Notes under the pieces: generated by a model
Databases searched by the model: none
What the model was told of the DNA's origin: nothing
What the model saw: only the letters and a program-made list of their open reading frames with translations
Position numbers and translations under genes: made by a program
Assembly: GCA_000002435.2 (NCBI GenBank)
Contig: CM018793.1
DNA length: 64,000 bases
Direction: 5' to 3' (one strand)
DNA from: Giardia intestinalis
Lineage: Eukaryota
In this document: piece after piece, positions 40,243-55,144 of the stretch
Position numbering within the stretch: position 1 is the stretch's first letter
Layout of the letters: the number at the start of each line of letters is the position of its first letter

Positions 40243-41182
40243 GATATATTTTTGAAATTTGACCCAATAGTTCTGCCTTAGGGCAACTACGAGCCTTTAA
40301 AGCACTATTGTAATTCATCACCATACATGCTTCAGAAAAGCACATGTATCGTCATCTGTATTTCCATTAATTTCTACTCTGGACTGCAGCCAACCTAACT
40401 AGCCTGAAGAAAAGTTGCTTGCATAAATCGCCTTTAAGGTAATTATATGTTAATGTTTCGAAGAGTATTTACTTGTCCACACACTAATACAATGATAGAG
40501 ACACAAGCTATCGAAAAGATTACAGATTGCAAGTTTGCATAATAGTTAGCGCATTTCAAGAAGTCAAAACAGATACCGAAGAGCATAGATACACATCAGG
40601 GAATATAATTTGACTGAGGTTACCAACAGCAAGATTAAGTTTAGGATTTTCGTGGAACTAGATGTATTGTTCTGCAGTTTGAGCTTAACTGTGCATTCTC
40701 TCTTAGTTAACTAAAGTAGAGCAAACCAACATCTATACAAAATCCAAACTCAAAGCACATTGGCAGATATCCGTATTTACAACAAACCTTCTGGATTCAA
40801 AGGCTAACGTTAGCACTTTCTTCACACTATAATAGAGTAAGACCCAGCTGTCATCTGTTATCAATTGCATCATATTCCACCGCCCTCGATGTCTGCATGC
40901 TATTAGGATTGTTGTCCGCTACCTACTATGCTCCCCATAGTACTTTCGACATTTCTCTCTCAGTGGCGCAAAGGCCACCACCCAGTGATCGCGGATACTA
41001 CACATTCAAATGGGACGATAGATCGCGTTATTGTCATGCAACAATACTATCTTTAAGGTTGCTACATCTTCACATAAAGGCTTAGTTGTGGGGTGCGCTC
41101 CTCCAAGGCTACAAATTCAGACAGAGGCTTCTTCCTGTGGTGGCGTTGAGAAGAGAATTCACCGCCGCCCTGCACGCATGCC

Positions 41183-41623
41183 TCAGTGCATGCGGACGGG
41201 GAGGCCCCGGAGGCGGGCGACGCGGCGCGAGAGCAGGGCGACCTCGGCGTCGAGCTCGCAGACCTGGGCCCGGCGGCGGCGGATGAGCGCGTCGGCCTCG
41301 AAGGGCGAGAGGCCCAGGGCGGTCCCGGCCGGGAAGAGCGCCTGCCAGCGGGCCCCGGGGGAGGGCGGCATCGGGCGCTGCTGCGGGGCGTCCGGGGACG
41401 GGGGCGGGGCCGGCGCCTCCCGGAGCCCGGCGAGCACGGACAGGGCGTCGCGCGCGAACTCGTGCCCGAGGCGCTCCGGGGGCGGGACGTTCGGGTAGCC
41501 GGCGTCCGTGCAGCGGCGGAGCAGGTGCAGCAGCCCGCGCACCTCCCCGAGGCCCCCCGGGCCGGCCGCGCACCGGGCGAGGGCGTCGGCGAGCTCCAGG
41601 TACGCCTGCTCGGCGCTGGCCAT
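41183..41623 (-). CDS. Small hypothetical protein (146 aa) in the GC-rich island
   Basis: True ATG at 41621-41623, immediately preceded on the coding strand by tcatttattaaacagcg, an AT-rich patch. Within 70%-GC DNA that reads as an initiator. The overlapping ORFs in other frames look like GC-driven artefacts. Confidence 0.4.
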   Translation of the reverse strand: MASAEQAYLELADALARCAAGPGGLGEVRGLLHLLRRCTDAGYPNVPPPERLGHEFARDALSVLAGLREAPAPPPSPDAPQQRPMPPSPGARWQALFPAGTALGLSPFEADALIRRRRAQVCELDAEVALLSRRVARLRGLPVRMH

Positions 41624-41776
41624 CGCTGTTTAATAAATGAGTGTGGCCGGGCCCCTGCGCCGGGCTGGCGCTCGGGGGCGTCGGCGGGCTCTGGGAGGGC
41701 CGACTCTGCCCCGGGCCCCGGAGCCTTAAGTGCCCTCCGCGGGCAAGGACTGCCCGAAATTATTCGGGGAAGGCGT

Positions 41777-42172
41777 TTACAGGCGGTCCCCCTGGTCCTC
41801 CTCCAGGACGACGGCGGAGACGCCCCCGAACTGCTGGCAGAACGCGAGCATGTGGTAGAGGAGGGGGATCTCGTTGTTGATCGCGTCGGGCGACAGGCCG
41901 AGGGTCCGGATCAGGTACTCCCGGCTGACGGGGAGCGTCGGGATCCCCGCCTCGACCTCGAGGGTGCCGGCGGTGGAGTGGAGGCCCATGAAGCGGAAGA
42001 ACTCCGTGATGAGCTCCAGGATCACGTACGTCTCGCCCTCGGGCTGCGGGGGCGGGCTGGCCTTGTGGCCCTCGAGCGCGCGGAGGACGGACTCGCGGAC
42101 CTTCGCCTGCAGGACCGCGAGCTCGCCCCGCTGCTTCATGTTCTGGAGGATGATGCTCTTGATCTCGTCCAT
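41777..42172 (-). CDS. FOP/TONNEAU1 N-terminal dimerisation-domain protein (LisH-like; centrosomal FGFR1OP/CEP43-type N-terminus), about 131 aa
   Basis: From MDEIKSIILQNMKQRGELAVLQAKVRESVLRALEG...YVILELITEFFRFMGL...REYLIRTLGL...IPLLYHMLAFCQQ. Compare FOP: LRDLLVQTLENSGVLNRIKAELRAAVFLALEE...LVASLVAEFLQFF...RENLARDLGI...PLLLEVIRRCQQ. ATG at 42170-42172, preceded by gggataaaaataaagaccc. Confidence 0.55.
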   Translation of the reverse strand: MDEIKSIILQNMKQRGELAVLQAKVRESVLRALEGHKASPPPQPEGETYVILELITEFFRFMGLHSTAGTLEVEAGIPTLPVSREYLIRTLGLSPDAINNEIPLLYHMLAFCQQFGGVSAVVLEEDQGDRL

Positions 42173-44124
42173 GGCCCGGGTCTTTATTTTTATCCCGGCC
42201 CGGGGCTGCCCGCGGGCTGCACTTTCGGGGCTTGAATAGACACTCAATAGGCCACCGAGTAGCGCAAGATAGGTCTCATAATTGTACTAGCATCAAAGTA
42301 GACTATTGGTCTTCAGGCTAATTCATATGCAAACTTTCACGCCTATATCTCCTTCTACTCCTAATAGGATCCTCGAACCCATTAGATTATGCATATAAAA
42401 GGATGTGCTTCTCCAATAGGGATGAGACAACTAGAAGTATCAACGTCCATTGTGGCTACAACACACGTAGAAGAACCAAGGGATTAGTAAGCTTGGCAGC
42501 CTACGCATATAACAACCGTTAGTCATGATAATTTCAGAGAATTCTTACTGGATGTGAAGGAGGTGACCAGAATAAGGGTGACGTGATTAATCTTCTGGTG
42601 GCAGCAATTATAATGATCGATAGTGCGCTAGGCTGCGGCAGAGCAGAAGGCCACGCCGGGCGCCGTGATGTCGTTGGCAGCATTCTGCTTTGCAGCGAGT
42701 GCCATTGTGGCGACTGAGCCTCTGTTTGCAACCAGAGCAGCCGGGCTATCTGGAGCGATACATGCAGAAAAAAGCCTCACCAATGTCGTTGCGCCACGTA
42801 GTTCCGCCGCAGCCACACCGTTAATCCTGTCGGTTACGGCCTGCACAGCAGAGAGTCGGCGCCGGTCAACTTGCGCGCCCGCTTGCATGTGAGAAGCACC
42901 TGGAAAGTGTCGCTCGCTGTAAGAAGCCTGGGGAAGGCCGCCGGGCCAGCGGGGGCAGCCACGGATTGACCGACGAAGCGGCTCGATGGGCTGGGAATGC
43001 GCATGCGTCAGCCCTCAGATTCTCCAGCAGCGGAAGGCAAGCGCTGAAAGGCTCTCCGCAGCCCTTGCCAAAGCCCAGCAGCATGCACAGCAGCGCTGTA
43101 CCACACGCATAAACGCTCAGAAACGGAGCTGCGCCGGTGCCCAGGGGAGCGGTCAAGACGTCCCGCACAGTGTCTACGCCCCCGGTGACACAGAGCTCCG
43201 CAAGGGCTGCTCCGAATGTGGTGGCGTCGAGTAAATGCGCGCACACAAGACACAGCAGCAGCCTCGTTGTAGGCCAGTTGAGGACGCACTCGCTGCTCCA
43301 CCCCGAGCTGTAGGTCTGACAGCAGGACGATCCGCTCCAGCCTCTCGGGCCCCTCCCCTGCTGTGCGCGTTGCAAGGCTCGCTGCGAAGGCACACGAGGC
43401 AGGGCCGCGCCGTGCATCCTCGAGCAGGCCGTCACTCAGCGCCAGCAGCTCCGCGTCCTGCACGACGCCGCCGGTGGCGTGGTAGTTCGCCATCAGGGAG
43501 CGCAACGAAGACGCAAGCATGAGCCCTCCTCGGCAGCCTCTCCGGTTGTCCGCCTGTCCGGGAATTATTCTTGCCAAATTGCATACGATTGCATTTTGAG
43601 ATTTCGTCTCCTTCCGTGGTGGACTGGAGCTTCAGCGTAGCGTCGTGTCTCCCGGGCCCGTCCACGCAGTGGCAGGCTACAGAGCCCGTTTGGCTGTCGC
43701 ACAATGTACTGGCCTACCGGGCACGCTGGGCAGCATCTTAGCGCCTCCGACGACGAGGAGCCACTGGCCCTGGACTGCACCACTAGGTCGCCTATCGGGC
43801 ACGCGCATGCTTCTTTCCGGATCCCGTCCATCCAGCTGCCAGCCCCGGAGGCGGAGCAGGTCGGGAGGCACCCTTCTGGCGAGAGCACGACAGGCAGCAA
43901 GGGCCAGCAGCCTTGCCATGGTCGCCCTCCTCGGCAGAGAGCCCGGCCCATCGCCCACTCCCCGCGGCCTCCGAAGAGTCCTCGCCTCCTGGTCCACCGG
44001 TCCGCATGCGTATCTACTTGCCACGTTATAGTAGCGAAGCCCCTCACCTGTCTGGCTATTCTTCACTCGACGTGGAAGGTGTTTACATGCGTAATGCACC
44101 GGCCGTGGACCAAATCTTAAGTTT

Positions 44125-45453
44125 ATGGCGCCCAGGGCGTCGTCGCCGGCGGAGGCTCCCTCCTTTCCGCCTGTGTCCTCTGCGCTGCAGATGCTTGTGC
44201 GGCCGCCTGTTCCAGCGTCAACCGGCGGGCATGACCCCGGTGGGGCGAGTCGTCTCCGAGAGGGACGCAGAGCCTGCGACCTGCGTTCTAGGCTGGGCCT
44301 TCTTCTGGGCCAGGCTGACGCGATGTCGGGGAGAAGCCGAGTGGGCCCGGAGACGCACTGCGCAAGGCTCCACCAGCTTCTAGCGCGGCTCGCAAGGCTG
44401 CAGGAAACAGACCGCTTGCTGGACGCCATTGAGTGTTCGAGTGCCTGCATGGCACAGATCAGCGACCTGGCCTGCCTCCGGTGCCTTCTTCGCGCACACT
44501 CCGCCCTAAGCATATCCCCGCCTCCGGCTGGCCGTGGCGTCTCTCTAGAGAGGCAGCGGCAGTGCATAGCGTCGTCCATCTGTGAGCACTTTTCAGCAGG
44601 AATCCGAGGGGCGCTGGACAGGATCCTTGCTTCGCGCCTCCGCGCCTGCCACGAGACGCGCGCTCAAGCGCATCTTACAAAGCCAGAGGCCTCCGACCAG
44701 CTGGCTAGCCTCCTGTCCGGCCTCCGTGTGGAGGATGCTGCCCCCATTTCGGCGCACTGGAGCGACCAGCTCTTCTACACGGCTCTCTGCCGCGAAGCAG
44801 CCGTTGTCTGCGAGTCCCTGTCTTCACTCGCCCTTTCGGTGTCGGAACAGGTTAGGCGCCGTATGCACCTGGGCGACAGCGGACCCTTGACTGCGCTGCT
44901 CCACGCCGCGAGGTCTTTCGTTTCTGCGTGCGAGCACGCCTTTTCTGTGTCCTTCCCGACTGGGCTGATGAGTGAGAGCGGAGAGGCAGGCCTTTTGCTG
45001 AGCGGGATCGAAGAGACGGGGCCCTACTTTTCTGCGCGATTGAAGCTGGCCCGAGCAAGGGAGCGGCCTCGTTTAATCGGGCGGCTGTTCGGTCGGTCCG
45101 CTGCGTCCCCCATCGAGGCATATGTAGAGCGTATTCGTCAAAACTTCAGCGGCCCTGCAGCATGGGCTCCCCCCTACCCAGAGCCGGGCCAGAGCCTTAT
45201 GTCTGACAGCTCTGCTGCGAGGCGGTGGCACACTACCGGCGCAGGCCAGCTCTTCGTCGACTTCCTTGTTTTGTTTCTGGGGTCAATCTTTGATGCATTT
45301 ACTCTCGGGGATCAGATTGCAACCTTCCCCTCTATAGGCCTGTATCTCAGCAACAATCCAGTGGCGGAGGAAGGCGGGCTATTCGCACGGGTCTTCGCTA
45401 CATACTCAGGAATGGTTGCCAGTGAAGCAGGGAGTCTAAGGGCTATCGAGTAG
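44125..45453 (+). CDS. Hypothetical protein (442 aa) in the GC-rich island
   Basis: True ATG at 44125 after gaccaaatcttaagttt. The C-terminal two-thirds has protein-like composition. The N-terminus is very GC/Pro/Ala-rich, so the start is uncertain (alternative ATG at 44323). Confidence 0.4.
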   Translation: MAPRASSPAEAPSFPPVSSALQMLVRPPVPASTGGHDPGGASRLREGRRACDLRSRLGLLLGQADAMSGRSRVGPETHCARLHQLLARLARLQETDRLLDAIECSSACMAQISDLACLRCLLRAHSALSISPPPAGRGVSLERQRQCIASSICEHFSAGIRGALDRILASRLRACHETRAQAHLTKPEASDQLASLLSGLRVEDAAPISAHWSDQLFYTALCREAAVVCESLSSLALSVSEQVRRRMHLGDSGPLTALLHAARSFVSACEHAFSVSFPTGLMSESGEAGLLLSGIEETGPYFSARLKLARARERPRLIGRLFGRSAASPIEAYVERIRQNFSGPAAWAPPYPEPGQSLMSDSSAARRWHTTGAGQLFVDFLVLFLGSIFDAFTLGDQIATFPSIGLYLSNNPVAEEGGLFARVFATYSGMVASEAGSLRAIE

Positions 45454-45543
45454 AGCCATTACTCTGTCCCGACGAGCCGATCCCGCCTGCCACTCGTCGC
45501 CCGTGCAGCACTGTCCCTCCGGGCACACGACAAGGCGCCTCGT

Positions 45544-47691
45544 GTGCGACCAGGCCAGCGGGCTCCCCCCTGGGGCAGCCCTCGGAGTGGGAGTCTCAGA
45601 GAGGAGGCCGCCGGGGCACCCCCACCCGCTGCGCGCAATCCGGTCCACACCACAGCCTCTCTACTGATACCCCTGTTCGTGGTGAGCGCGCTTGCAGTAA
45701 CCTGCCAGACCGGCAAGTGCGAGACGGTCGGATCAGCCGAGATTTGCACCCAGTGCAGGGCCGGGGGCGTCCCGGTCGACGGCTTCTGCTGGCCCCCCGG
45801 CTCCCCCCAGGCCGCGGCAGCCGGGTGCACCGAGGAAGACGGGGCTACCCTCGACAAGACGGCAACCACCTGCGGGAAGTGCGGCGACGGGTACTTCCTC
45901 TTCATGGGAGGGTGCTACAAGGTAGGACAAGATCCTGGCAGTGAGATATGCACAACAGCCAGTGATGGAGTGTGTACTACTTGTAAGACAGATAACGGCC
46001 TGTTCAAGAACCCGGCTACAGCACCGAAGCCTGGTAGTGAGTGCATCCTGTGCTCTGATATCAAGGGAGCAGATGGATATACGGGAGTAGAGAACTGCGC
46101 ACAGTGTACCAAGTCAGACAGTAACAAGGGGGCTGCCACGTGTACAGAATGCCAAGATGGATATTATAAAGATGCTAAAGGCGCATGTGTACAATGCCAG
46201 GGGAACTGCGCCACTTGTGAGACATCGGCGACCCAGTGTACCTCTTGTAAAGCGGGCTTCTATCTGAAGGACGGCAATAGCTGTGTGGCAGAAGGAGAAT
46301 GCACAAACACCGTTTATCCTGACCCAGAGTCGGGGAAGTGCAAGGCATGTAGTACAATAACTGATTGCACAGAATGCTCCTTCGACAAGGCCACGGGGAA
46401 GCCTCAGTGCACAGCCTGCGGTAGTCAGAAGACCCCCAGGACGACCCTTGATGGGACCTCGACCTGCGTCGATAAAACGCTTGACGGGTGCAAGGGCGCT
46501 GACGGGGCCTTATTTATGAAGGACGATACCACATGCGCCCTTTGCGGCGATGCGTCCCCTGGCGCTGGCGCAAACGATAAGGGGATTGCCGGGTGTAAGA
46601 CATGTACTAAGCAGCAAAGTCAGAAACCAGAATGCACAAGTTGTTTGGATGGATACTTCTTTGAACAGTCATCAAAGACTTGTTCGGCTTGTGCCTCCAA
46701 CTGTGCCACCTGCACGTCAGCTGATGTGTCAACTTGTACTGAGTGCCTTCCTGGGTACTTCCTAAAAACCGAGGGTGAAACGAAGTGTGCTGCATGCGAC
46801 AGTACACCAGATGGTGGCCGCGAAGGGTGCAGTCTATGTTCTAGCAACGGTGGATTTAAGTGCACTGAATGTAAGCCTAACTATAAGAAGCAGTCCAATG
46901 GAGGAGCAGGGGATGACTATACGTGTACAAAGGTGTGTGAAGACCCCACTGCTTGTGGGGGGACAGCTGGCTCTTGTGATGCCATAGTGATCGGTGCTGA
47001 TGGAAAGGAGCTTCACTATTGCTCATACTGTGGGGAGAGTACTAAGGTACCAATTGATGGCATCTGTGCTACTGATAAGAAAGGTAATACTTGTAACAGT
47101 CATACATGTACACAGTGTGCTCAAGGGTACTTCTTATACATGAATGGCTGTTACAAGGTTGGTCAAGAACCAGGTAGTCATATGTGCAAGACAGCAGGTA
47201 ATACTGGGATATGCACAGAAGCGGCCAACAATAGATACTTCGTAGTCCCAGAGGCAACCAATGCTCAGCAGTCTGTACTAGCATGTGGTAACCCATTAGG
47301 CACACTAATAGGTACTCAAGACAATGCTAAGGCATACGTGGGGGTCGAGGGCTGCTCCCAGTGTACAGCCCCAGTAGCTCTGACTGAGGCTGGTATGGCT
47401 GCCGCTACATGCACCTCCTGTGACAGTGATAAGAAGCCCAACAAGGATGGCACCGGGTGTGTGCTGTGCTCTGTGGGTGATTGCAAGAGCTGTGTGGTGG
47501 ATGATGTGTGTGGGGAGTGTGTTGATGGGTACAGTCTAGACAGCAGTGGGACCTCCTGTGTGTCTATGAGTACCAACAGGAGCGGGCTCTCCACGGGGGC
47601 CATCGCGGGGATCTCCGTCGCTGTGGTCGTCGTCGTGGGGGGCCTCGTGGGCTTCCTCTGCTGGTGGTTCATATGTAGAGGGAAGGCATGA
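45544..47691 (+). CDS. Variant-specific surface protein (VSP), copy A, the most complete copy. It has no in-frame ATG before the signal-peptide-like segment, so it may be a pseudogene or a junction copy
   Basis: CxxC-rich ectodomain with GGCY motifs. It ends ...NRSGLSTGAIAGISVAVVVVVGGLVGFLCWWFICRGKA*. The signal-like segment TASLLIPLFVVSALAVTC (about 45649-45702) sits in an ORF that opens with GTG at 45544 inside the GC-rich block. The first in-frame ATG comes only at FLFMGGCYK. AGTGAAT lies 8 nt after the stop. Confidence 0.6.
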   Translation: MRPGQRAPPWGSPRSGSLREEAAGAPPPAARNPVHTTASLLIPLFVVSALAVTCQTGKCETVGSAEICTQCRAGGVPVDGFCWPPGSPQAAAAGCTEEDGATLDKTATTCGKCGDGYFLFMGGCYKVGQDPGSEICTTASDGVCTTCKTDNGLFKNPATAPKPGSECILCSDIKGADGYTGVENCAQCTKSDSNKGAATCTECQDGYYKDAKGACVQCQGNCATCETSATQCTSCKAGFYLKDGNSCVAEGECTNTVYPDPESGKCKACSTITDCTECSFDKATGKPQCTACGSQKTPRTTLDGTSTCVDKTLDGCKGADGALFMKDDTTCALCGDASPGAGANDKGIAGCKTCTKQQSQKPECTSCLDGYFFEQSSKTCSACASNCATCTSADVSTCTECLPGYFLKTEGETKCAACDSTPDGGREGCSLCSSNGGFKCTECKPNYKKQSNGGAGDDYTCTKVCEDPTACGGTAGSCDAIVIGADGKELHYCSYCGESTKVPIDGICATDKKGNTCNSHTCTQCAQGYFLYMNGCYKVGQEPGSHMCKTAGNTGICTEAANNRYFVVPEATNAQQSVLACGNPLGTLIGTQDNAKAYVGVEGCSQCTAPVALTEAGMAAATCTSCDSDKKPNKDGTGCVLCSVGDCKSCVVDDVCGECVDGYSLDSSGTSCVSMSTNRSGLSTGAIAGISVAVVVVVGGLVGFLCWWFICRGKA

Positions 47692-47844: not shown

Positions 47845-49488
47845 GTGACCCCTGGTAGTGAGTGCATCCTCTGTCATGATGCCACGGGAGCGAATGAGAA
47901 CAAAGGAGTGGCCAACTGCCTCAAGTGCACGGCACCTGGTGGCAATACAGGACCTGCCACGTGTACAGAGTGTCAAGCAGGGTTCGTTACGAAGGACAGT
48001 GCATGTGAGAAGTGCGGAGAGGGCTGCTCTGCCTGCTCAGAGAGTGATCCAAATCAATGCTCGGCATGCCTTGAGGGGAAGTATCTGAAGGGTAATGCAT
48101 GTGTAGGACCCACTGAATGTGGTGATGGTAAGTATGCAGATCCAACAACAGGCCAATGCAAGGCATGTGGAATACCTGACTGCGCCACCTGTGAGTACAA
48201 TGCAACTATTAGTCAACCACAGTGTAAGACCTGCAATAGCAATAAGATGGTGAAGACAGCGGCAGACGGGACGACCACTTGTGTCGATGATGGTGGATGT
48301 ACAAATGGCAATACGCACTTTGTTGAAGGTACTAGCCCAAAGCTTTGTGTCCCGTGCGGTGATACTACAAATGGTGGGATTCTAGGTTGTAGTACTTGCT
48401 CCTCTAAAACTACATGTACAAAGTGCCTCGACGGATATTACGATAATGATGATAGTCAAGATACAGCTACGTGTGTCGCTTGTGGTGGACAAAATTGTGA
48501 GACATGTGCTAAGGCTACGAGTGATAAATGCACGACCTGTAAGCCTGGATTCTTCTTGAAGGATAGCTCCTCTGGTGAGTGCATCTCATGTAGTGACACA
48601 GCAAATGGTGGTCGCGAAGGCTGCAGTGTCTGCTCGAATGATAGTGGATTCAAGTGCACTGACTGTAAGCCTAACTATAAGAAGCAGCTTAATGGAGGAG
48701 CAGATGATGACTATACATGTGTGAAGACCTGTGAGGATGACACTGCTTGTGGTGGTACCTCTGGTGCTTGCGATGCCATAGTGATCAATGAGAATGGAAA
48801 GGAGCTTCACTACTGTTCATACTGTGGGGATAACAGTAAGTATCCTATAGATGGAAAATGTACAAATGTCAATGCTGGAAATACAGGATGCACCAATAAT
48901 GTCTGCAAGTCTTGTACTGCAGGGTACTTCCTCTATATGGGAGGGTGTTATAAGATTGGTGCAGAACCAGGCAACCTCATGTGCAAGACCGCTGAAGGTG
49001 GTAAGTGCACTGCTGTTAATGCCAATAATAGGTACTTCGTAGTCCCAGAGGCACAGGCTACTGATCAGTCTGTGTTGGCATGTGGCAACCCCCTTGGCAC
49101 ACTAGTAGGCACTGATAGTACCTCTAAGGCATATGTGGGGGTAGATGGCTGCTCCCAGTGTACAGCCCCAGTAGCTCTGACTGAGGCTGGTATGGCTGCC
49201 GCTACATGCACCTCCTGTGACAGTGATAAGGTGCCCAACAAGGATGGCACCGGGTGTGTGCTGTGCTCTGTGGGTGATTGCAAGAGCTGTGTGGTGGATG
49301 ATGTGTGTGGGGAGTGTGTTGATGGGTACAGTCTAGACAGCAGTGGGACCTCCTGTGTGTCTATGAGTACCAACAGGAGCGGGCTCTCCACGGGGGCCAT
49401 CGCGGGGATCTCCGTCGCTGTGGTCGTCGTCGTGGGGGGCCTCGTGGGCTTCCTCTGCTGGTGGTTCATATGTAGAGGGAAGGCATGA
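47845..49488 (+). CDS. VSP copy B, 5'-truncated (homology begins about 47767 at ...EICTKASNG...); intact TM+CRGKA tail; likely a pseudogene or silent donor
   Basis: There is no ATG or signal peptide. In-frame stops (tga, tag) lie immediately upstream of the homology start. The C-terminus ...CWWFICRGKA* is followed by an AGTGAAT motif. Confidence 0.55.
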   Translation: MTPGSECILCHDATGANENKGVANCLKCTAPGGNTGPATCTECQAGFVTKDSACEKCGEGCSACSESDPNQCSACLEGKYLKGNACVGPTECGDGKYADPTTGQCKACGIPDCATCEYNATISQPQCKTCNSNKMVKTAADGTTTCVDDGGCTNGNTHFVEGTSPKLCVPCGDTTNGGILGCSTCSSKTTCTKCLDGYYDNDDSQDTATCVACGGQNCETCAKATSDKCTTCKPGFFLKDSSSGECISCSDTANGGREGCSVCSNDSGFKCTDCKPNYKKQLNGGADDDYTCVKTCEDDTACGGTSGACDAIVINENGKELHYCSYCGDNSKYPIDGKCTNVNAGNTGCTNNVCKSCTAGYFLYMGGCYKIGAEPGNLMCKTAEGGKCTAVNANNRYFVVPEAQATDQSVLACGNPLGTLVGTDSTSKAYVGVDGCSQCTAPVALTEAGMAAATCTSCDSDKVPNKDGTGCVLCSVGDCKSCVVDDVCGECVDGYSLDSSGTSCVSMSTNRSGLSTGAIAGISVAVVVVVGGLVGFLCWWFICRGKA

Positions 49489-49510
49489 CTCAGGTAGTGA
49501 ATGCTATACA

Positions 49511-49560
49511 ATGTGTGATAATGGGTAATAGAGGGTGATAGTGTGATAGTGGAGTGTGAT
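49511..49560 (+). repeat. Degenerate (G)TGATAG(TG) short-repeat spacer between a VSP stop/poly(A) motif and the next truncated VSP body. It recurs in every inter-unit spacer
   Basis: atgtgtgataatgggtaatagagggtgatagtgtgatagtggagtgtgat. Variants of it occur at about 47710-47765, 51395-51460, 53265-53320, 55155-55210, 57050-57115 and 58920-58965. Confidence 0.7.
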
Positions 49561-51379
49561 ATGTACAAAGGCCAGTAATGGACTGTGCACTGCTTGTAAG
49601 ACAGATAACAAGTACATATTCCAGAACAGGGCAGACAAGGTGACTCCTGGTGGGGAGTGCATCTTGTGCTCTGATATCAAGGGAGCGAATGGATATACGG
49701 GAGTGGCCAACTGTCTCAAGTGTACGGCACCAGGGAATGCAGGACCTGCCACGTGTAATACCTGTCAAGAGGGGTACTTCCTAAACAACAAGCTTTGTAA
49801 GCCATGCGAGGGGAACTGTGCCACCTGTGAGACATCGGCGACCCAGTGCACATCGTGTCCAGAGGGGAAGTACCTCAATGGGAATCAATGTACTGATAGC
49901 TGTGGTAATGATAAGTATGCTGATCCAGAGTCTGGAACGTGCATGGCATGTAGTACAATAACTGATTGCACGGCATGCAAGTACAATGCGACTGTCAGTA
50001 AGCCCCAGTGCACTAACTGTGGCAGTAAGAAGGTGAAGACGGCCATCGATGGCACCACAACGTGCGTTGATGTGAGCTCTGGATGCCAGGATGCTGATCA
50101 CTTCAAGGCAGATGGTGATGCTGCGTGTGTCTTGTGCAGCGATACCAGCGGAGATAATGAGAACACAAATAAGGGACTGGAGGGCTGTAGTGCGTGCACA
50201 AAACCTAATAACAACCAACCACCCGCTTGTACCGGATGCTTACCCGGATATTACGATTCTGCGCCCGGCACCTTCAAGTGTAAGGCCTGTGCTCCCAACT
50301 GTGCCACCTGCACTCAAATTGGAGACGATAAGTGCTTGACCTGTAAGGAGGGGTTCTTCATGAAAGTCAGTGGCCCCGGTGAGTGCGTCCCTTGTAGTGA
50401 TACAGCTAAGGATGGCATCGATGGATGTGCAACGTGCACCTTCTCTAGCTCGTTGACCTGCAACTCCTGTAAGGTGAACTACAAGCAGAGCGGTACCCCT
50501 TCAACTGGGGTCACATGCACCAGGACTTGTGAAGATGATACGGCCTGCGGGGGTACCTCTGGTGCCTGCGATGCCATGATAATTGATGATAAGGGCACCA
50601 CAAAGCACTACTGTTCATACTGTGGGGATAGTTCACAAGCTCCTATAGATGGACTATGCACTAATAACAAAGAAAGTAATACTTGTACTAGTCATACATG
50701 TACATCATGTGCTGCTAACTACTTCCTCTATATGGGTGGCTGTTATAGCACTCAGAAGGCTCCTGGCAACTACATGTGCAAGACCGCAGGTAACAATGGG
50801 ATATGCACAGAAGCGGCCAACAATAGGTACTTCGTAGTCCCAGAAGCAACCAATGCTCAACAGTCTGTCCTGGCATGTGGTAACCCCCTTGGCACACTGA
50901 CAGGCACTGGTGATACTGCTAAGGCATACGTTGGGGTGGATGGCTGCTCCCAGTGCACAGCCCCAGCAGCTCCATCTGATGGTGGTATGACCCCCGCTGT
51001 GTGCACCTCTTGTGACAATAGTAAGAAGCCCAACCTGGCTGGGAGCGGGTGCTTCCCATGTGCCGTTGTTGGATGCTCGCACTGTGATATGGACAACAAG
51101 TGCTCCGCCTGCACAGAGGGGGGCAAGAGACCCAACAAGGAAGGGACAGCATGCTTTGAATGTAACGTGGAGGGGTGCGCTTATTGTAGTGGTGCTAATA
51201 AGTGTGAAGAGTGCAGCGATGGGTTCAAATTAGAGGGTGACAAGTGCGTGTCTTCTGGCACCAACAGGAGCGGGCTGTCTACTGGCGCCATCGCGGGCAT
51301 CTCCGTCGCTGTGGTCGTCGTCGTGGGGGGCCTCGTGGGCTTCCTCTGCTGGTGGTTCCTCTGCAGGGGGAAGGCGTGA
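49556..51379 (+). CDS. VSP copy C (607-aa type), 5'-truncated, starting at ICTKASNGLCTACKTDN...; tail ...CWWFLCRGKA*
   Basis: GTG-initiated ORF only. The nearest ATG (atgtac) is out of frame. Identical in protein to copy F. Confidence 0.55.
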   Translation: MICTKASNGLCTACKTDNKYIFQNRADKVTPGGECILCSDIKGANGYTGVANCLKCTAPGNAGPATCNTCQEGYFLNNKLCKPCEGNCATCETSATQCTSCPEGKYLNGNQCTDSCGNDKYADPESGTCMACSTITDCTACKYNATVSKPQCTNCGSKKVKTAIDGTTTCVDVSSGCQDADHFKADGDAACVLCSDTSGDNENTNKGLEGCSACTKPNNNQPPACTGCLPGYYDSAPGTFKCKACAPNCATCTQIGDDKCLTCKEGFFMKVSGPGECVPCSDTAKDGIDGCATCTFSSSLTCNSCKVNYKQSGTPSTGVTCTRTCEDDTACGGTSGACDAMIIDDKGTTKHYCSYCGDSSQAPIDGLCTNNKESNTCTSHTCTSCAANYFLYMGGCYSTQKAPGNYMCKTAGNNGICTEAANNRYFVVPEATNAQQSVLACGNPLGTLTGTGDTAKAYVGVDGCSQCTAPAAPSDGGMTPAVCTSCDNSKKPNLAGSGCFPCAVVGCSHCDMDNKCSACTEGGKRPNKEGTACFECNVEGCAYCSGANKCEECSDGFKLEGDKCVSSGTNRSGLSTGAIAGISVAVVVVVGGLVGFLCWWFLCRGKA

Positions 51380-51387
51380 CTTAGGTA

Positions 51388-53253
51388 GTGAATGCTGTAC
51401 AATGTGTGATAATGGGTGATAGTATGATAGTGGTGTGTGGGGGTGATAGTGATAGTACGGGACTTCTCTTCATGGGCGGGTGCTACAAGACAGAGAGTCA
51501 GCCCGGCAGTGACATATGCACACAGGCTGAGGGAGGAGTGTGCACTGCTTGTAAGGCAGATAGTCAGTACATATTCCAGAATGGGGCAGAGAAGGTGACC
51601 CCTGGTGGGGAGTGCATACTGTGCTGGGATACTATAGATAGAAACGGGGTCATGGGAGTCAAGGACTGTCTCAAGTGTACGGCACCAGCTAATAACAAGG
51701 GGGCTGCCACGTGTACAGAATGCCAAGCAGGGTACGTTAAGGATAACGCTTCTAATACGTGTAAGAAGTGCGGAGAGGGCTGCTCCGAGTGCTCAGAGAG
51801 TGATCAGCAATCGTGTACTGCCTGCTTTGAAGGGAAGTTCCTGAAGGCTGACAGTAAGACTTGTGTAGAGGCTAATCAATGTGGTAATGATAAGTATGCA
51901 GACCCGACAACAGGCCAATGTAAGGCATGCACAGACACAAGTGTCAATGAATGTGCTACGTGTACATACAGCGACACTCTTCAGAAGCCGGTGTGCACTG
52001 GATGCGGGGGCCAAAAGCCGCTTCTCAAGCAAAAAGCTGATGGCACAGTAGAATGTGTTGATGATGGCGGCTGCCCTACTGGTGATACCCACTTCCTTGA
52101 ACAATATCCAAAGGCTTGTGTCCCATGTGGTGATAATACACGAGGCGGCGTTGTCGGATGTAGCACCTGCACTGCAAAGGGAGGGTGCTCTGCCTGTTTA
52201 GCTGGGTATATAAAAGAGGGAAGTAGCGACCCAGTTACATGCACCCCCTGTCACGCCAACTGTGCTACATGCTCTGCTGCTGGCAAGGATAAGTGTGATA
52301 CATGCAAGCCAGGGTACTTCATGAAAGGCAGTGGTCCTACTGGTGAGTGCGTTGCTTGTGACAGTGAAGCCGACAATGGCATCGAGGGCTGTGGTGCATG
52401 CACAAACGATGGCGGTGCTTTCAAGTGCACCGATTGCAAGCCCAACTATCGCAAGCAGAGCGATAGCAGTTCTGGCTCTGTTACATGTACAAAGGTGTGT
52501 GAAGATGATACTGCCTGCGGGGGCACTTCTGGTGCCTGCGATGCAATAGTGATTGATGCTAATGGAAAGGAGCTTCATTATTGTTCTTATTGTGGGGATA
52601 ACAGTAAGGTACCAATTGATGGCATCTGTGCTACTGATAAGAAAGGTAATACTTGTAACAGTCATACATGTACACAGTGTGCTCAAGGGTACTTCTTATA
52701 CATGAATGGCTGTTACAAGGTTGGTCAAGAACCAGGTAGTCATATGTGCAAGACAGCAGGTAATACTGGGATATGCACAGAAGCGGCCAACAATAGATAC
52801 TTCGTAGTCCCAGAGGCAACCAATGCTCAGCAGTCTGTACTAGCATGTGGTAACCCATTAGGCACACTAATAGGTACTCAAGACAATGCTAAGGCATACG
52901 TGGGAGTGGATGGCTGCTCCCAGTGTACAGCCCCAGTAGCTCTGACTGATGGTGGTATGACCCCTGCTATATGTACCTCCTGTGACAGTGATAAGAAGCC
53001 CAACAAGGATGGCACCGGGTGTGTGCTGTGCTCTGTGGGTGATTGCAAGAGCTGTGTGGTGGATGATGTGTGTGGGGAGTGTGTTGATGGGTACAGTCTA
53101 GACAGCAGTGGGACCTCCTGTGTGTCTATGAGTACCAACAGGAGCGGGCTCTCCACGGGGGCCATCGCGGGGATCTCCGTCGCTGTGGTCGTCGTCGTGG
53201 GGGGCCTCGTGGGCTTCCTCTGCTGGTGGTTCATATGTAGAGGGAAGGCATGA
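51388..53253 (+). CDS. VSP copy D (621-aa type), 5'-truncated; VSP homology begins at LLFMGGCYK (about 51462); tail ...CWWFICRGKA*
   Basis: The ORF runs in frame through the GTGATAG spacer, which supplies ATG codons (MGDSMIVVCGG...) but no signal peptide. Near-identical to copy G. The C-terminal part is near-identical to that of copy A. Confidence 0.55.
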   Translation: MNAVQCVIMGDSMIVVCGGDSDSTGLLFMGGCYKTESQPGSDICTQAEGGVCTACKADSQYIFQNGAEKVTPGGECILCWDTIDRNGVMGVKDCLKCTAPANNKGAATCTECQAGYVKDNASNTCKKCGEGCSECSESDQQSCTACFEGKFLKADSKTCVEANQCGNDKYADPTTGQCKACTDTSVNECATCTYSDTLQKPVCTGCGGQKPLLKQKADGTVECVDDGGCPTGDTHFLEQYPKACVPCGDNTRGGVVGCSTCTAKGGCSACLAGYIKEGSSDPVTCTPCHANCATCSAAGKDKCDTCKPGYFMKGSGPTGECVACDSEADNGIEGCGACTNDGGAFKCTDCKPNYRKQSDSSSGSVTCTKVCEDDTACGGTSGACDAIVIDANGKELHYCSYCGDNSKVPIDGICATDKKGNTCNSHTCTQCAQGYFLYMNGCYKVGQEPGSHMCKTAGNTGICTEAANNRYFVVPEATNAQQSVLACGNPLGTLIGTQDNAKAYVGVDGCSQCTAPVALTDGGMTPAICTSCDSDKKPNKDGTGCVLCSVGDCKSCVVDDVCGECVDGYSLDSSGTSCVSMSTNRSGLSTGAIAGISVAVVVVVGGLVGFLCWWFICRGKA

Positions 53254-53320
53254 CTCAGGTAGTGAATGCTATACAATGTGTGATAATGGGTAATAGAGGG
53301 TGATAGTGTGATAGTGGAGT

Positions 53321-55144
53321 GTGATATGTACAAAGGCCAGTAATGGACTGTGCACTGCTTGTAAGACAGATAACAAGTACATATTCCAGAACAGGGCAGA
53401 CAAGGTGACTCCTGGTGGGGAGTGCATCTTGTGCTCTGATATCAAGGGAGCGAATGGATATACGGGAGTGGCCAACTGTCTCAAGTGTACGGCACCAGGG
53501 AATGCAGGACCTGCCACGTGTAATACCTGTCAAGAGGGGTACTTCCTAAACAACAAGCTTTGTAAGCCATGCGAGGGGAACTGTGCCACCTGTGAGACAT
53601 CGGCGACCCAGTGCACATCGTGTCCAGAGGGGAAGTACCTCAATGGGAATCAATGTACTGATAGCTGTGGTAATGGTAAGTATGCTGATCCAGAGTCTGG
53701 AACGTGCATGGCATGTAGTACAATAACTGATTGCACGGCATGCAAGTACAATGCGACTGTCAGTAAGCCCCAGTGCACTAACTGTGGCAGTAAGAAGGTG
53801 AAGACGGCCATCGATGGCACCACAACGTGCGTTGATGTGAGCTCTGGATGCCAGGATGCTGATCACTTCAAGGCAGATGGTGATGCTGCGTGTGTCTTGT
53901 GCAGCGATACCAGCGGAGATAATGAGAACACAAATAAGGGACTGGAGGGCTGTAGTGCGTGCACAAAACCTAATAACAACCAACCACCCGCTTGTACCGG
54001 ATGCTTACCCGGATATTACGATTCTGCGCCCGGCACCTTCAAGTGTAAGGCCTGTGCTCCCAACTGTGCCACCTGCACTCAAATTGGAGACGATAAGTGC
54101 TTGACCTGTAAGGAGGGGTTCTTCATGAAAGTCAGTGGCCCCGGTGAGTGCGTCCCTTGTAGTGATACAGCTAAGGATGGCATCGATGGATGTGCAACGT
54201 GCACCTTCTCTAGCTCGTTGACCTGCAACTCCTGTAAGGTGAACTACAAGCAGAGCGGTACCCCTTCAACTGGGGTCACATGCACCAGGACTTGTGAAGA
54301 TGATACGGCCTGCGGGGGTACCTCTGGTGCCTGCGATGCCATGATAATTGATGATAAGGGCACCACAAAGCACTACTGTTCATACTGTGGGGATAGTTCA
54401 CAAGCTCCTATAGATGGACTATGCACTAATAACAAAGAAAGTAATACTTGTACTAGTCATACATGTACATCATGTGCTGCTAACTACTTCCTCTATATGG
54501 GTGGCTGTTATAGCACTCAGAAGGCTCCTGGCAACTACATGTGCAAGACCGCAGGTAACAATGGGATATGCACAGAAGCGGCCAACAATAGGTACTTCGT
54601 AGTCCCAGAAGCAACCAATGCTCAACAGTCTGTCCTGGCATGTGGTAACCCCCTTGGCACACTGACAGGCACTGGTGATACTGCTAAGGCATACGTTGGG
54701 GTGGATGGCTGCTCCCAGTGCACAGCCCCAGCAGCTCCATCTGATGGTGGTATGACCCCCGCTGTGTGCACCTCTTGTGACAATAGTAAGAAGCCCAACC
54801 TGGCTGGGAGCGGGTGCTTCCCATGTGCCGTTGTTGGATGCTCGCACTGTGATATGGACAACAAGTGCTCCGCCTGCACAGAGGGGGGCAAGAGACCCAA
54901 CAAGGAAGGGACAGCATGCTTTGAATGTAACGTGGAGGGGTGCGCTTATTGTAGTGGTGCTAATAAGTGTGAAGAGTGCAGCGATGGGTTCAAATTAGAG
55001 GGTGACAAGTGCGTGTCTTCTGGCACCAACAGGAGCGGGCTCTCCACGGGGGCCATCGCGGGGATCTCCGTCGCTGTGGTCGTCGTCGTGGGGGGCCTCG
55101 TGGGCTTCCTCTGCTGGTGGTTCATATGTAGAGGGAAGGCATGA
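53321..55144 (+). CDS. VSP copy E (607-aa type), 5'-truncated; tail ...CWWFICRGKA*
   Basis: Differs from copies C and F only at a few positions (GNGKY versus GNDKY, FICRGKA versus FLCRGKA). Confidence 0.55.
   Translation: MICTKASNGLCTACKTDNKYIFQNRADKVTPGGECILCSDIKGANGYTGVANCLKCTAPGNAGPATCNTCQEGYFLNNKLCKPCEGNCATCETSATQCTSCPEGKYLNGNQCTDSCGNGKYADPESGTCMACSTITDCTACKYNATVSKPQCTNCGSKKVKTAIDGTTTCVDVSSGCQDADHFKADGDAACVLCSDTSGDNENTNKGLEGCSACTKPNNNQPPACTGCLPGYYDSAPGTFKCKACAPNCATCTQIGDDKCLTCKEGFFMKVSGPGECVPCSDTAKDGIDGCATCTFSSSLTCNSCKVNYKQSGTPSTGVTCTRTCEDDTACGGTSGACDAMIIDDKGTTKHYCSYCGDSSQAPIDGLCTNNKESNTCTSHTCTSCAANYFLYMGGCYSTQKAPGNYMCKTAGNNGICTEAANNRYFVVPEATNAQQSVLACGNPLGTLTGTGDTAKAYVGVDGCSQCTAPAAPSDGGMTPAVCTSCDNSKKPNLAGSGCFPCAVVGCSHCDMDNKCSACTEGGKRPNKEGTACFECNVEGCAYCSGANKCEECSDGFKLEGDKCVSSGTNRSGLSTGAIAGISVAVVVVVGGLVGFLCWWFICRGKA

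What the first reader, a model, noticed from the sequence alone, without database searches (positions are those of the whole stretch)
41160..45540. An extreme GC island (by eye about 70-75% GC) placed between the core region and the VSP array, containing genes with AT-rich initiators
Composition switches abruptly at about 41160, from under 40% to above 70% GC. All six frames become open, for example the 349-aa antisense ORF at 41186-42235. At least two reading frames have the Giardia hallmark of a short AT-rich patch immediately 5' of the ATG (41623, 42172), and one encodes a recognisable FOP/TONNEAU1-N domain. Genes at 70-75% GC in a genome that is about 49% GC on average are unusual. Possible explanations: GC-biased gene conversion in a recombination-active region flanking the VSP array; horizontally acquired DNA; or a subtelomere-like compartment.
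Basis: partly seen in the sequence, partly recalled or inferred. Interest (0 to 1): 0.6.

Follow-up and report, generated by a model that had tools for sequence, protein, structure and literature searches.

The report
GC-converted repeat modules beside Giardia VSPs
The GC-rich island is real: it is two separate repeated pieces of Giardia DNA, carrying conserved native genes, whose A/T bases were replaced wholesale by G/C in this lineage only, most likely by GC-biased gene conversion between the repeat copies.

Summary
The island is real but is not one block. Module R (41160-42233, 73.6% GC, 8 SD above the local background) holds a FOP-domain gene, the GlsR24 snoRNA and a 146-aa gene. In both genes every sense codon ends in G or C, which matches the published genome maximum. 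A unique 41%-GC spacer (42234-42612) separates R from module E2 (42613-~45950, 63.8% GC). E2 holds a frameshifted kinase-gene fragment, a promoter region, a conserved 442-aa gene and a VSP head.

Both modules are repeats: R has two identical inverted copies and E2 at least four. Three of the four GC edges fall exactly on repeat edges. Orthologous loci have ordinary GC: G. muris-like for R, assemblages E and B for E2. Differences run almost entirely A/T to G/C (R third positions 55:0 and 80:0; E2 683:86, mostly transitions, equal on both strands).

Horizontal transfer is refuted. A regional or subtelomere-like effect is not supported. GC-biased gene conversion among repeat copies is the best explanation, but it is inferred rather than shown. 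The VSP tandem array is not GC-rich, and recent changes in E2 are balanced.

This is a striking new example of a known kind of process.

The parts
41160..42233 (-). Module R: a 1074-bp gene cassette, 73.6% GC, present as two identical copies in WB
   Evidence: Contigs carrying the other copy match at 100% identity. They diverge from the window exactly at 42233 (L001, L002, L018) and at 41157-41160 (L017, L026). Several contigs stop at 41160. GC figure. Both genes have two accessions each.
41183..41623 (-). 146-aa gene GL50803_116712/116713: a conserved small helical protein of unknown function
   Evidence: Exact match. GC 80.7%, GC1 0.84, GC2 0.59; 146 of 146 sense codons end in G or C. Orthologues exist in other assemblages and in a G. 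muris-like contig, always next to the FOP gene. Only 8 relatives in 1.84 billion representatives. No Pfam match.
41629..41638 (-). AT-rich initiator patch (ATTTATTAAA) 6-15 nt upstream of the 146-aa gene's ATG, abutting the 3' end of GlsR24
   Evidence: Read from the sequence. It is an AT island inside 80% GC DNA. A promoter role is inferred from general knowledge of Giardia promoters.
41640..41786 (-). GlsR24 H/ACA-type small RNA. It fills the gap between the two genes and overlaps the FOP stop codon.
   Evidence: Rfam RF02487, 166.6 bits against a gathering score of 100. Found in the same spacer in other G. duodenalis lineages at 94-170 bits, and not found in the G. muris-like spacer. Only 3 compensatory pairs.
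41777..42172 (-). 131-aa FOP/LisH-type centrosomal protein gene GL50803_134441/134442 (UniProt name 'Centrosomal protein 43')
   Evidence: PF09398, E=3.6e-8. Exact match. 131 of 131 sense codons end in G or C while GC2 stays at 0.36. 97-98% aa identity across the other G. duodenalis lineages sampled (identical in A2), 86% to the G. muris-like protein, 53% to Hexamita.
42181..42193 (-). AT-rich initiator patch (ATAAAAATAAAGA) 9-21 nt upstream of the FOP ATG
   Evidence: Read from the sequence.
41186..42235 (+). Spurious 349-aa antisense ORF, open only because the DNA lacks AT-rich stop codons
   Evidence: Its GC1 of 0.93 mirrors the GC3 of the real genes. No Pfam match. Not in the protein collection.
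42234..42612 (.). Unique spacer of 40.9% GC between the two modules
   Evidence: Present in the orthologous A2 contig L016 at 98.4% identity. Absent from the other copies of R and of E2.
42613..45950 (+). Module E2: a repeated segment of 63.8% GC that leads into a VSP gene
   Evidence: A paralogous copy in isolate DHA2 (L029) aligns to 42613-46059 at 93.8-95.5% identity. Its left flank consists of unrelated core genes at 41-49% GC. WB has four 442-aa copies on two chromosomes.
42715..43520 (-). Pseudogene fragment: the first ~290 codons of a 2630-aa PI3/PI4-kinase-family gene, frameshifted across three frames
   Evidence: tblastn with the assemblage E and B kinase proteins. In those assemblages the intact gene lies head-to-head with the 442-aa homologue.
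43521..44124 (.). Copied divergent intergenic/promoter region, with an AT patch (AAATCTTAAGTTT, 44112-44124) directly before the ATG
   Evidence: Aligns to the assemblage E core locus, with 42-53% of A/T sites changed to G/C. Sequence.
44125..45453 (+). 442-aa gene GL50803_00d114445: a conserved Giardia-specific protein of unknown function
   Evidence: Exact match and paralogues. Homologues of 446-451 aa at 51-68% identity, including GLP15_4055 and GL50581_750. A/T-to-G/C change is 0.33, 0.29 and 0.52 at codon positions 1, 2 and 3, showing that coding constraint was retained.
45544..47691 (+). VSP-family ORF. Its first ~400 nt are 65-71% GC, and it has no ATG before its signal-peptide-like segment.
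   Evidence: PF03302, E=2.2e-46. No start codon here or in the DHA2 copy, which is also frameshifted. Similarity to the other VSP genes begins at 45887-45940, where GC falls to about 50%.

Best explanation
**What it is.** The island is two unrelated repeated DNA modules lying side by side at a junction between core genes and VSP genes.

- **Module R** is an old, native gene cassette: FOP-like gene, GlsR24 small RNA and a 146-aa gene. It is present as two identical inverted copies. These bracket a segment rich in VSP and other cysteine-rich protein genes.
- **Module E2** is a copy of part of a core locus: the 5' end of a large kinase gene, the shared promoter region and a 442-aa gene. It became attached to a VSP gene and was amplified to at least four copies in assemblage A.

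**What happened to it.** In both modules A:T pairs were replaced by G:C pairs on a massive scale, in the G. duodenalis lineage (R) or the assemblage A lineage (E2).

**Proposed mechanism.** Recombination repair between copies creates heteroduplex DNA. This includes ectopic gene conversion between repeat copies, and possibly conversion between the four chromosome sets. Mismatches in the heteroduplex are resolved preferentially towards G:C. A/T-to-G/C changes are therefore fixed far more often than the reverse, but only inside the stretch of shared homology.

**How selection limits the outcome.**
- The tightly constrained FOP protein changed only at silent sites, which went to saturation.
- The looser 146-aa and 442-aa proteins were dragged towards Gly, Ala, Arg and Pro.
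- The short AT-rich initiator patches survived as AT islands.

**Shown versus inferred.**
- Shown: the composition, the repeat structure, the match of GC edges to repeat edges, the direction and spectrum of the substitutions, native ancestry, and identity of the copies.
- Inferred: that biased gene conversion, rather than a local mutation bias, is the cause.
For: **1. GC edges match repeat edges.** This holds at 41160, 42233 and 42613. The flanks are normal or AT-rich at both copies of R and at two copies of E2.

**2. Substitution direction in R, against the G. muris-like orthologue.**
- Third-position A/T-to-G/C against the reverse is 55:0 in the FOP gene and 80:0 in the 146-aa gene.
- Against the unnamed Giardia lineage L008 the FOP gene gives 57:0.

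**3. Substitution direction in E2, against the assemblage E core locus.**
- 683 A/T-to-G/C changes against 86 of the reverse.
- Polarised with assemblage B, the window lineage shows 331:29.
- About 41% of all A/T sites changed.

**4. All site classes are affected.**
- Intergenic DNA and the pseudogene show 0.35-0.53 of A/T sites changed.
- The GlsR24 small RNA is 73% GC, and the 5' and 3' leaders of R are 67-78% GC.
- Non-synonymous sites are affected too. In the 146-aa protein Gly+Ala+Arg+Pro rises from 0.28 to 0.50, and Phe+Tyr+Met+Ile+Asn+Lys falls from 0.16 to 0.07. In the 442-aa protein Gly+Ala+Arg+Pro is 0.38 against 0.17-0.23 in its homologues.

**5. The pattern is not that of codon selection.**
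- At four-fold sites both C (0.62) and G (0.38) are used.
- Every Leu codon is CTC or CTG and every Arg codon is CGC or CGG, so GC is maximised at every synonymous choice.

**6. There is no editing signature.** T>C (309) is about equal to A>G (300). There is no strand-coordinated clustering (runs test z=-0.93, permutation fraction 0.46) and only weak dependence on neighbouring bases.

**7. The copies evolve in concert.**
- The two WB copies of R are identical over 1074 bp. Isolate P15 also has two accessions with the same FOP protein sequence. Yet the 146-aa protein differs by 8% between A and the E-like lineage.
- The four WB copies of the 442-aa protein are 98-99% identical across two chromosomes.

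**8. GC3 rises stepwise across lineages.** The G. muris-like contig has 58% and 44%. Other G. duodenalis lineages have 93-99%. WB has 100%.

**9. Literature.** Giardia genes inside inferred gene-conversion tracts are GC-enriched and are enriched for VSPs (PMC12669663). [quoted passage not shown] Biased gene conversion has been suggested for Giardia's GC-rich rDNA (PMC10123126).
Against: - No polymorphism or direct conversion data were available, so a fixation bias cannot be separated from a local mutation bias.
- Being repeated is not sufficient. The tandem VSP array next door, with recurring ORFs of identical length, is only 50-52% GC with GC3 of 0.47-0.56.
- The fourth GC edge, near 45950, is not a repeat edge. 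It lies inside the VSP ORF, where similarity to other VSP genes begins.
- Recent differences in E2 between A1 and A2, or between paralogous copies, are balanced: 20:16 and 18:23. The shift in E2 is therefore either finished or at equilibrium, and an ongoing drive is not shown there.
- The GC-rich state could have arisen before the duplications. In that case the match between GC edges and repeat edges would be trivial.
- I could not retrieve the WB chromosome. The inverted arrangement of the R copies rests on accession order and on short contigs.
Confidence: 0.55

Rival explanations
1. A local mutation bias rather than a fixation bias. These modules would be replicated or repaired by an error-prone route that makes A:T-to-G:C transitions at high rate, for example break-induced replication at fragile junctions between core and VSP regions. 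The new composition would then simply be the mutational equilibrium.
For: - The E2 spectrum is 89% transitions: 609 of 683 A/T-to-G/C changes.
- E2 diverges 3.2-4.5% between A1 and A2, against 0.8% for R and 1.6% for the spacer. That indicates a raised overall rate.
- Recent changes are balanced, as expected at a mutational equilibrium.
- The repeated VSP array is not GC-rich.
Against: - A mutational process tied to chromosomal position should not stop within a few bases of repeat edges, nor skip the 379-bp spacer between the modules.
- Transitions also dominate the reverse changes, 72 against 14, so the transition excess is not specific to the A/T-to-G/C direction.
- In R not a single third-position G/C-to-A/T change is seen among 135 directional changes. 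That fits a fixation bias more easily.
Confidence: 0.22
2. Selection for GC-rich sequence. One version is codon optimisation for high expression of the small genes. The other is selection for a GC-rich structural or chromatin boundary element between core and variable chromatin.
For: - In Giardia the codon adaptation index correlates strongly with GC3s (r=0.90; PMC8393687).
- The modules sit exactly at junctions between core and VSP-family genes in all three loci seen (window, L026, L029).
Against: - Codon selection cannot explain GC enrichment of a frameshifted pseudogene, of intergenic DNA and of non-synonymous sites.
- It also does not explain the mixed use of C and G at four-fold sites.
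- The orthologues of the same genes have ordinary GC3 in a G. muris-like genome and in assemblages E and B.
- No expression data were available.
Confidence: 0.08
3. A dedicated repeat-directed or editing-type hypermutation. This would be adenine deamination of DNA or of an RNA intermediate followed by reverse transcription, a mirror image of fungal repeat-induced point mutation that marks duplicated DNA with A-to-G changes.
For: - The changes are confined to duplicated segments and are overwhelmingly A:T-to-G:C transitions.
- A 5' G is mildly disfavoured: 0.28 of sites changed against 0.37-0.41.
Against: - A>G and T>C are equal in number and are interleaved at random, with no strand-coordinated clusters (z=-0.93).
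- Context dependence is weak, at most 1.5-fold.
- Codon position 3 is hit more than positions 1 and 2. That indicates gradual change filtered by selection rather than a burst.
- GC3 rises stepwise across lineages.
- E2 includes promoter DNA and a head-to-head gene fragment, which does not suit a retro-copied transcript.
Confidence: 0.07
4. Foreign DNA: the GC-rich block was acquired by horizontal transfer from a GC-rich donor.
For: Only the abrupt compositional edges and the lack of Pfam domains in two of the three proteins.
Against: - All three genes have vertical orthologues with ordinary GC in relatives. Synteny of the FOP and 146-aa pair is conserved in a G. muris-like contig, and the 442-aa gene has a core-locus orthologue in assemblages E and B.
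- The protein distances follow the species tree: A-E 68%, E-B 61%, A-B 59%.
- Hexamita has a FOP orthologue.
- Giardia-type initiator patches are present.
Confidence: 0.01

Closest known systems
Mouse Fxy (Mid1) gene spanning the pseudoautosomal boundary (own knowledge: Perry & Ashworth 1999; Montoya-Burgos et al. 2003; used by Galtier & Duret as the textbook case of biased gene conversion)
   Same: - A conserved gene, or part of one, that entered a recombination-active context shot up in GC3.
- It also acquired GC-driven amino-acid changes in one lineage, while orthologues stayed ordinary.
- The compositional boundary is sharp.
   Different: - Here the context is not a meiotic pseudoautosomal region. 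It is small dispersed or inverted repeats in an organism with no observed meiosis.
- The saturation is more extreme: 100% of sense codons end in G or C.
GC enrichment of paralogues under concerted evolution: histone and Hsp70 families, rDNA arrays, Y-chromosome palindrome arms (own knowledge; Escobar et al. 2011 is cited for Giardia rDNA in PMC10123126)
   Same: - Copies are kept identical by gene conversion.
- GC is elevated relative to single-copy relatives.
- Both coding and non-coding parts are affected.
   Different: - Only 2-4 copies are involved, not large arrays.
- The effect size is very large (42% to 64% GC and ~50% to 74% GC) in a 49% GC genome.
- The neighbouring, much more repeated VSP genes do not show it.
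Elevated GC of VSP-containing regions in Giardia (reported in the literature; 10.1101/2022.03.07.483299 citing an earlier sliding-window analysis) and GC-enriched gene-conversion tracts (PMC12669663)
   Same: Same organism, same genomic neighbourhood, and the same suggested link between conversion and GC.
   Different: - Those reports describe modest regional averages: 53.9% in the 2 kb upstream of VSP genes, and a median of 54% for genes in conversion tracts.
- In the passages I read, they do not resolve discrete modules, their non-VSP gene content, their ordinary-GC orthologues or the substitution spectrum.
High subtelomeric GC in Cryptosporidium canis (PMC10438818; title and abstract only, seen)
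   Same: A parasite genome with localised GC-rich genes near variable gene families.
   Different: That case is positional (subtelomeric). Here the effect tracks repeat units and skips the unique DNA between them.
Fungal repeat-induced point mutation (own knowledge)
   Same: Base-composition change is confined to duplicated DNA and is dominated by transitions.
   Different: - The direction is opposite (C:G to T:A in fungi).
- The fungal process is strongly context-dependent and inactivates genes.
- Here the genes stay intact and no clustering or strong context is seen.

Membership tests
FOP/FOR20/TONNEAU1-type centrosomal proteins (Pfam FOP_dimer, PF09398) | Match to the FOP N-terminal dimerisation domain above Pfam's gathering score | tested here: met
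   34.0 bits against a cut-off of 29.4, E=3.6e-8, residues 49-109. Orthologues also carry the domain.
FOP/FOR20/TONNEAU1-type centrosomal proteins (Pfam FOP_dimer, PF09398) | Localisation to the centrosome or basal body, and dimerisation | not testable with these tools
   UniProt's name 'Centrosomal protein 43' is an automatic annotation, not an experiment.
GlsR24 H/ACA small nucleolar RNA (Rfam RF02487) | Covariance-model score above the gathering threshold | tested here: met
   166.6 bits against 100. The family was probably built from this very Giardia locus, so for WB this is identification rather than independent evidence. Other lineages score 94-170 bits.
GlsR24 H/ACA small nucleolar RNA (Rfam RF02487) | Hairpin-hinge-hairpin-ACA architecture supported by covariation | tested here: inconclusive
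   ACA lies 2-3 nt from the 3' end, and the hairpins are conserved. Only 3 of 45 pairs show compensatory change, and the hinge AGAGCC is an imperfect H box.
GC-biased gene conversion tract | Strong excess of A/T-to-G/C over G/C-to-A/T substitutions on the affected lineage | tested here: met
   R third positions 55:0 and 80:0. E2 683:86, and 331:29 when polarised.
GC-biased gene conversion tract | Affects silent, non-coding and replacement sites alike; no strand asymmetry | tested here: met
GC-biased gene conversion tract | Coincides with a tract of demonstrated recombination or gene conversion | tested here: inconclusive
   Three of four GC edges equal repeat edges, and the copies are identical or 98-99% identical. 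No conversion event was observed directly, and the repeated VSP array is not GC-rich.
GC-biased gene conversion tract | A/T-to-G/C polymorphisms segregate at higher frequency than the reverse | not tested
   This needs population read data mapped to the modules, which these tools do not provide.
Horizontally acquired island | Genes absent from close relatives, or closest to a foreign donor | tested here: not met
   Orthologues with ordinary GC exist in a G. muris-like genome, in Hexamita and in assemblages B and E.
Editing or hypermutation tract (deaminase-type) | Strand-coordinated clusters and a strong sequence context | tested here: not met
   Runs test z=-0.93. Context effects are at most 1.5-fold.
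Giardia variant-specific surface protein (PF03302), ORF 45544-47691 | VSP domain, CRGKA tail, and an ATG within the initiator motif | tested here: inconclusive
   The domain (E=2.2e-46) and the CRGKA tail are present. There is no ATG before the signal-peptide-like segment, either here or in the DHA2 copy, so it is probably a pseudogene.

The most novel reading that the evidence does not exclude
Giardia has a strong homology-dependent process that drives small dispersed repeats to extreme GC. It may be unusually strong biased gene conversion or a dedicated mechanism. It acts within the time separating sister assemblages and is powerful enough to reshape protein composition. The 1074-bp GC-saturated inverted repeats would also act as recombination substrates that invert the VSP-rich segment between them. 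Contigs from different samples do join the flanks of the two copies in both possible combinations (L001, L017). If true, this gives a sequence read-out of frequent recombination in a parasite whose sexuality is disputed. It also suggests a structural switch next to antigenic-variation genes.
Probability: 0.15. Interest if true: 0.85.

Novelty: new member of a known kind. Interest (0 to 1): 0.6.

Why it matters
- **Recombination in Giardia.** Giardia's recombination biology is contested, with no observed meiosis, four genome copies in two nuclei and very low heterozygosity. These modules are a natural experiment. The same genes exist in an ordinary-GC single-copy state in sister lineages and in a GC-saturated repeated state here. 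The strength and reach of GC-biased repair can therefore be measured directly.
- **A practical annotation problem.** In such DNA all six frames are open. Databases have carried a spurious antisense ORF, such as the 300-aa ORF at 43677-44579. Real proteins from these modules have distorted composition that hides homology.
- **Origin of VSP-adjacent genes.** It shows that at least one family of 'hypothetical proteins next to duplicated VSPs' (the 442-aa genes) is a copy of a core gene carried along with VSP amplification.
- **Functional motifs stand out.** The surviving AT patches in a GC sea mark the minimal promoter and initiator elements with unusual clarity.

Tried and rejected
- **Chance ORFs.** The two small minus-strand ORFs and the 442-aa ORF are real genes. 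Evidence: extreme codon periodicity, orthologues of conserved length, and position-dependent substitution. The 349-aa (+) ORF, and I infer the other overlapping ORFs of 80-300 aa in the island, are by-products of GC richness. The checks: none gave a credible Pfam match, and of those looked up only the 300-aa ORF is in the protein collection, as a MetaClust-only entry.
- **Horizontal transfer.** Rejected on the orthologues.
- **Subtelomere or regional effect.** Rejected because the spacer and flanks are 39-41% GC.
- **Codon selection.** Rejected as the main cause.
- **Editing-type hypermutation.** No strand clusters.
- **Function of the 146-aa protein.** No Pfam match, only 8 relatives in 1.84 billion representatives, and an AlphaFold model too poor (pLDDT 67.6, pTM 0.33) to justify a fold search.
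- **Function of the 442-aa protein.** No Pfam match for it or for its ordinary-GC homologues.
- **Retrieving the WB chromosome to see the second R copy and all E2 copies.** The index returned only short Logan contigs and DHA2 contigs.
- **Literature on the locus tags.** Nothing relevant was found.
- **Bacterial promoter/terminator scan.** Irrelevant for a eukaryote, so I ignored it.

Full report
**1. Observation**

- The window is from Giardia duodenalis WB. The encoded proteins are exact matches to GL50803 entries on a 4.02-Mb chromosome.
- Overall GC is 50.1%, and 47.9% outside the GC-rich blocks.
- At 41160 the 200-bp GC jumps from 0.35-0.50 to 0.70-0.82.
- The island is not uniform:

| Segment | GC |
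|---|---|
| 41160-42233 | 73.6% |
| 42234-42612 | 40.9% |
| 42613-~45950 | 63.8% |

- Background 1074-bp windows have mean 0.479, SD 0.032 and maximum 0.558. The two blocks are therefore about 8 and 5 SD above the mean.
The right edge is near 45950, not 45540.

**2. What is in the first block (module R)**

- Two minus-strand genes show extreme codon periodicity.
  - The 146-aa gene (41183-41623) has GC1/GC2/GC3 of 0.84/0.59/0.99.
  - The 131-aa gene (41777-42172) has 0.67/0.36/0.99.
  - In both, every sense codon ends in G or C. Only the stop codon ends in A.
- The 146-aa gene's values, 146/147 = 99.32% GC3 and about 81% GC, equal the maxima reported for all G. duodenalis genes (PMC8393687). 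This cassette therefore appears to be the compositional extreme of the genome.
- The 131-aa protein has a FOP dimerisation domain. It is GL50803_134441/134442.
- The 146-aa protein is GL50803_116712/116713.
- The gap between the two genes is filled by the GlsR24 H/ACA-type RNA. It overlaps the FOP stop codon and ends where the next gene's AT-rich initiator patch starts.
- The 349-aa plus-strand ORF is the antisense shadow of these genes.

**3. Module R is a repeat, and its edges are the GC edges**

- Each of the two proteins has two WB accessions. These are numbered 722/723 and 746/747, in mirrored order. I infer from this an inverted pair about 22 genes apart.
- Contigs carrying the other copy are 100% identical to the window. 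They diverge exactly at 42233 and at 41157-41160.
- GC collapses at those points in both copies.
- The inner (FOP-promoter) side of each copy faces a VSP-family gene. The outer side faces core genes.

**4. Ancestry of R**

- In a G. muris-like contig the two genes are adjacent in the same order. Its FOP protein is in the 90% cluster of GMRT_16148. GC3 there is 58% and 44%, and no GlsR24 match is found.
- An unnamed Giardia lineage (L008) has FOP GC3 of 59%. Hexamita has 21%.
- Other G. duodenalis lineages show 93-99%. WB shows 100%.
- Against the G. muris-like genes, third positions show 55 and 80 A/T-to-G/C changes and no reverse changes.
- The FOP protein is 86% identical to the G. muris-like protein, with unchanged amino-acid composition.
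- The 146-aa protein is 46% identical. Its Gly+Ala+Arg+Pro content rose from 0.28 to 0.50.
- At four-fold sites C and G are both used (0.62 and 0.38). All Leu and Arg codons are of the CTS and CGS type.
- Horizontal transfer is excluded.

**5. The second block (module E2)**

- The 442-aa ORF is a real gene. Homologues of 446-451 aa exist at 51-68% identity. They include GLP15_4055 (assemblage E) and GL50581_750 (assemblage B).
- In those assemblages the gene lies at a core locus. It is head-to-head with a 2630-aa PI3/PI4-kinase-family gene and is followed by DNA polymerase epsilon. GC there is 42-46%.
- Window 42715-45477 aligns to that locus at about 70% identity.
- It includes the first ~290 codons of the kinase gene, now frameshifted over three frames.
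- A paralogous copy in isolate DHA2 aligns from 42613 to beyond 46059. Unrelated core genes of 41-49% GC lie on its left. The left repeat edge therefore again equals the GC edge.
- WB has four copies, 98-99% identical in protein sequence, on two chromosomes.
- The right GC edge, near 45950, is not a repeat edge. It lies inside a start-less VSP ORF, where similarity to the other VSP genes begins.

**6. Substitution pattern in E2**

- Of 830 differences from the assemblage E locus, 683 are A/T-to-G/C and 86 are the reverse.
- The spectrum is T>C 309, A>G 300, T>G 39 and A>C 35.
- Polarised with assemblage B, the window lineage has 331 against 29.
- The fraction of A/T sites changed is 0.42-0.53 in intergenic DNA and 0.35-0.50 in the pseudogene. 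In the 442-aa gene it is 0.33, 0.29 and 0.52 at codon positions 1, 2 and 3. The gene therefore stayed under constraint while being converted.
- There are no strand-coordinated clusters (z=-0.93), and context effects are weak.
- Protein distances follow the species tree, with a long branch leading to assemblage A.
- Between A1 and A2, or between paralogous copies, recent changes are balanced: 20:16 and 18:23. E2 diverges 3.2-4.5%, against 0.8% in R and 1.6% in the spacer.

**7. Interpretation**

- Two independent modules went the same way. Each is repeated, and each has ordinary-GC orthologues elsewhere.
- The unique DNA between and around them did not change.
- This argues against a positional compartment. 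It argues for a homology-dependent process with a bias towards G:C.
- GC-biased gene conversion among repeat copies is the best-supported candidate. It is consistent with published links between conversion tracts, VSPs and GC in Giardia.
- It is not proven, for four reasons:
  - there are no polymorphism data;
  - the highly repeated VSP array is not GC-rich;
  - the drive is not visibly ongoing in E2;
  - GC enrichment could have preceded the duplications.
- Local mutation bias is the main rival.
- Codon selection, editing-type hypermutation and horizontal transfer are disfavoured or refuted.

**8. Comparison with known cases and novelty**

- The closest analogues are the mouse Fxy gene at the pseudoautosomal boundary and GC-rich paralogue families under concerted evolution (own knowledge).
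- Regional GC elevation near VSPs is already published. So is the numerical GC3 maximum.
- I found no description of these modules, their origin or their substitution pattern.
- I rate it a new member of a known kind, with interest 0.6.

Noticed in passing
L008:2700-3160 (Logan SRR31929897, unnamed Giardia lineage): The FOP orthologue there has a 38-nt Giardia-type intron (GTACGT...CCTAACATACAG) after codon 6. It is followed directly by a DEAD_2 helicase gene rather than by the 146-aa gene. The intron is absent in G. duodenalis and in the G. muris-like contig, which suggests intron loss and rearrangement.
   Followed up: partly
L001 (SRR14213833) and L017 (SRR13856662) versus window 40951-42687: Contigs cross the whole 1074-bp repeat with 'recombinant' flank pairs. 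L001 joins the other copy's FOP-side flank to the window's 146-side flank. L017 joins the window's FOP-side flank to the other copy's 146-side flank. These are the two products expected from inversion between inverted repeats, but they could also be assembler chimeras.
   Followed up: partly
window 45544-45950 and L029:11420-11905: The VSP attached to module E2 has a signal-peptide-like segment (LLIPLFVVSALAVTC) but no ATG. The DHA2 copy is also frameshifted. This is probably a VSP pseudogene head whose start was lost in the GC-rich part.
   Followed up: partly
window 47845-60658: A head-to-tail VSP array with recurring ORFs of identical length: 607 aa at 49556, 53321 and 55212, and 621 aa at 51388 and 57044. 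This suggests tandem repeat units of about 1.9 kb. The ORFs as listed begin with GTG, and I did not check whether they contain an in-frame ATG start. GC is only 50-52%.
   Followed up: no
window 60500-64000: A second GC-rich block (66% GC). It contains a High Cysteine Membrane Protein Group 3 gene (61277-63778, GC3 0.87) that is also multi-copy in WB. The 90% cluster has members on a 1.49-Mb chromosome and twice on the 4.02-Mb chromosome.
   Followed up: partly
window 43677-44579 (-): A 300-aa ORF antisense to the 5' end of the 442-aa gene and its promoter exists in one protein database (UPI0001CA72D1, MetaClust). It shows no codon periodicity and is probably a spurious call caused by GC richness.
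   Followed up: partly
window 41640-41786 and L010, L014, L015, L017: GlsR24 starts inside the last codons of the FOP gene. Its unstructured 5' part contains the stop codon and a poly(A)-signal-like TGTAAAC. It may therefore be processed from the FOP transcript's 3' end. No match was found in the 116-nt AT-rich spacer of the G. muris-like contig.
   Followed up: partly
L008:9000-13157: In the unnamed Giardia lineage a run of core genes is 60-69% GC, including a DAAF5-like gene with GC3 0.86 and an HSP70 gene. Regional GC heterogeneity is therefore not confined to G. duodenalis.
   Followed up: no
window 5502-5583 (+): A tRNA gene (Rfam RF00005, 61.4 bits) in the core part of the window.
   Followed up: no
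L026:1018-1350 (DHA2 contig AHGT01000077): A 110-aa VSP C-terminal fragment lies between the second R copy and the adjacent core genes. It is 76-78% identical to the 3' ends of the window's array VSPs.
   Followed up: no
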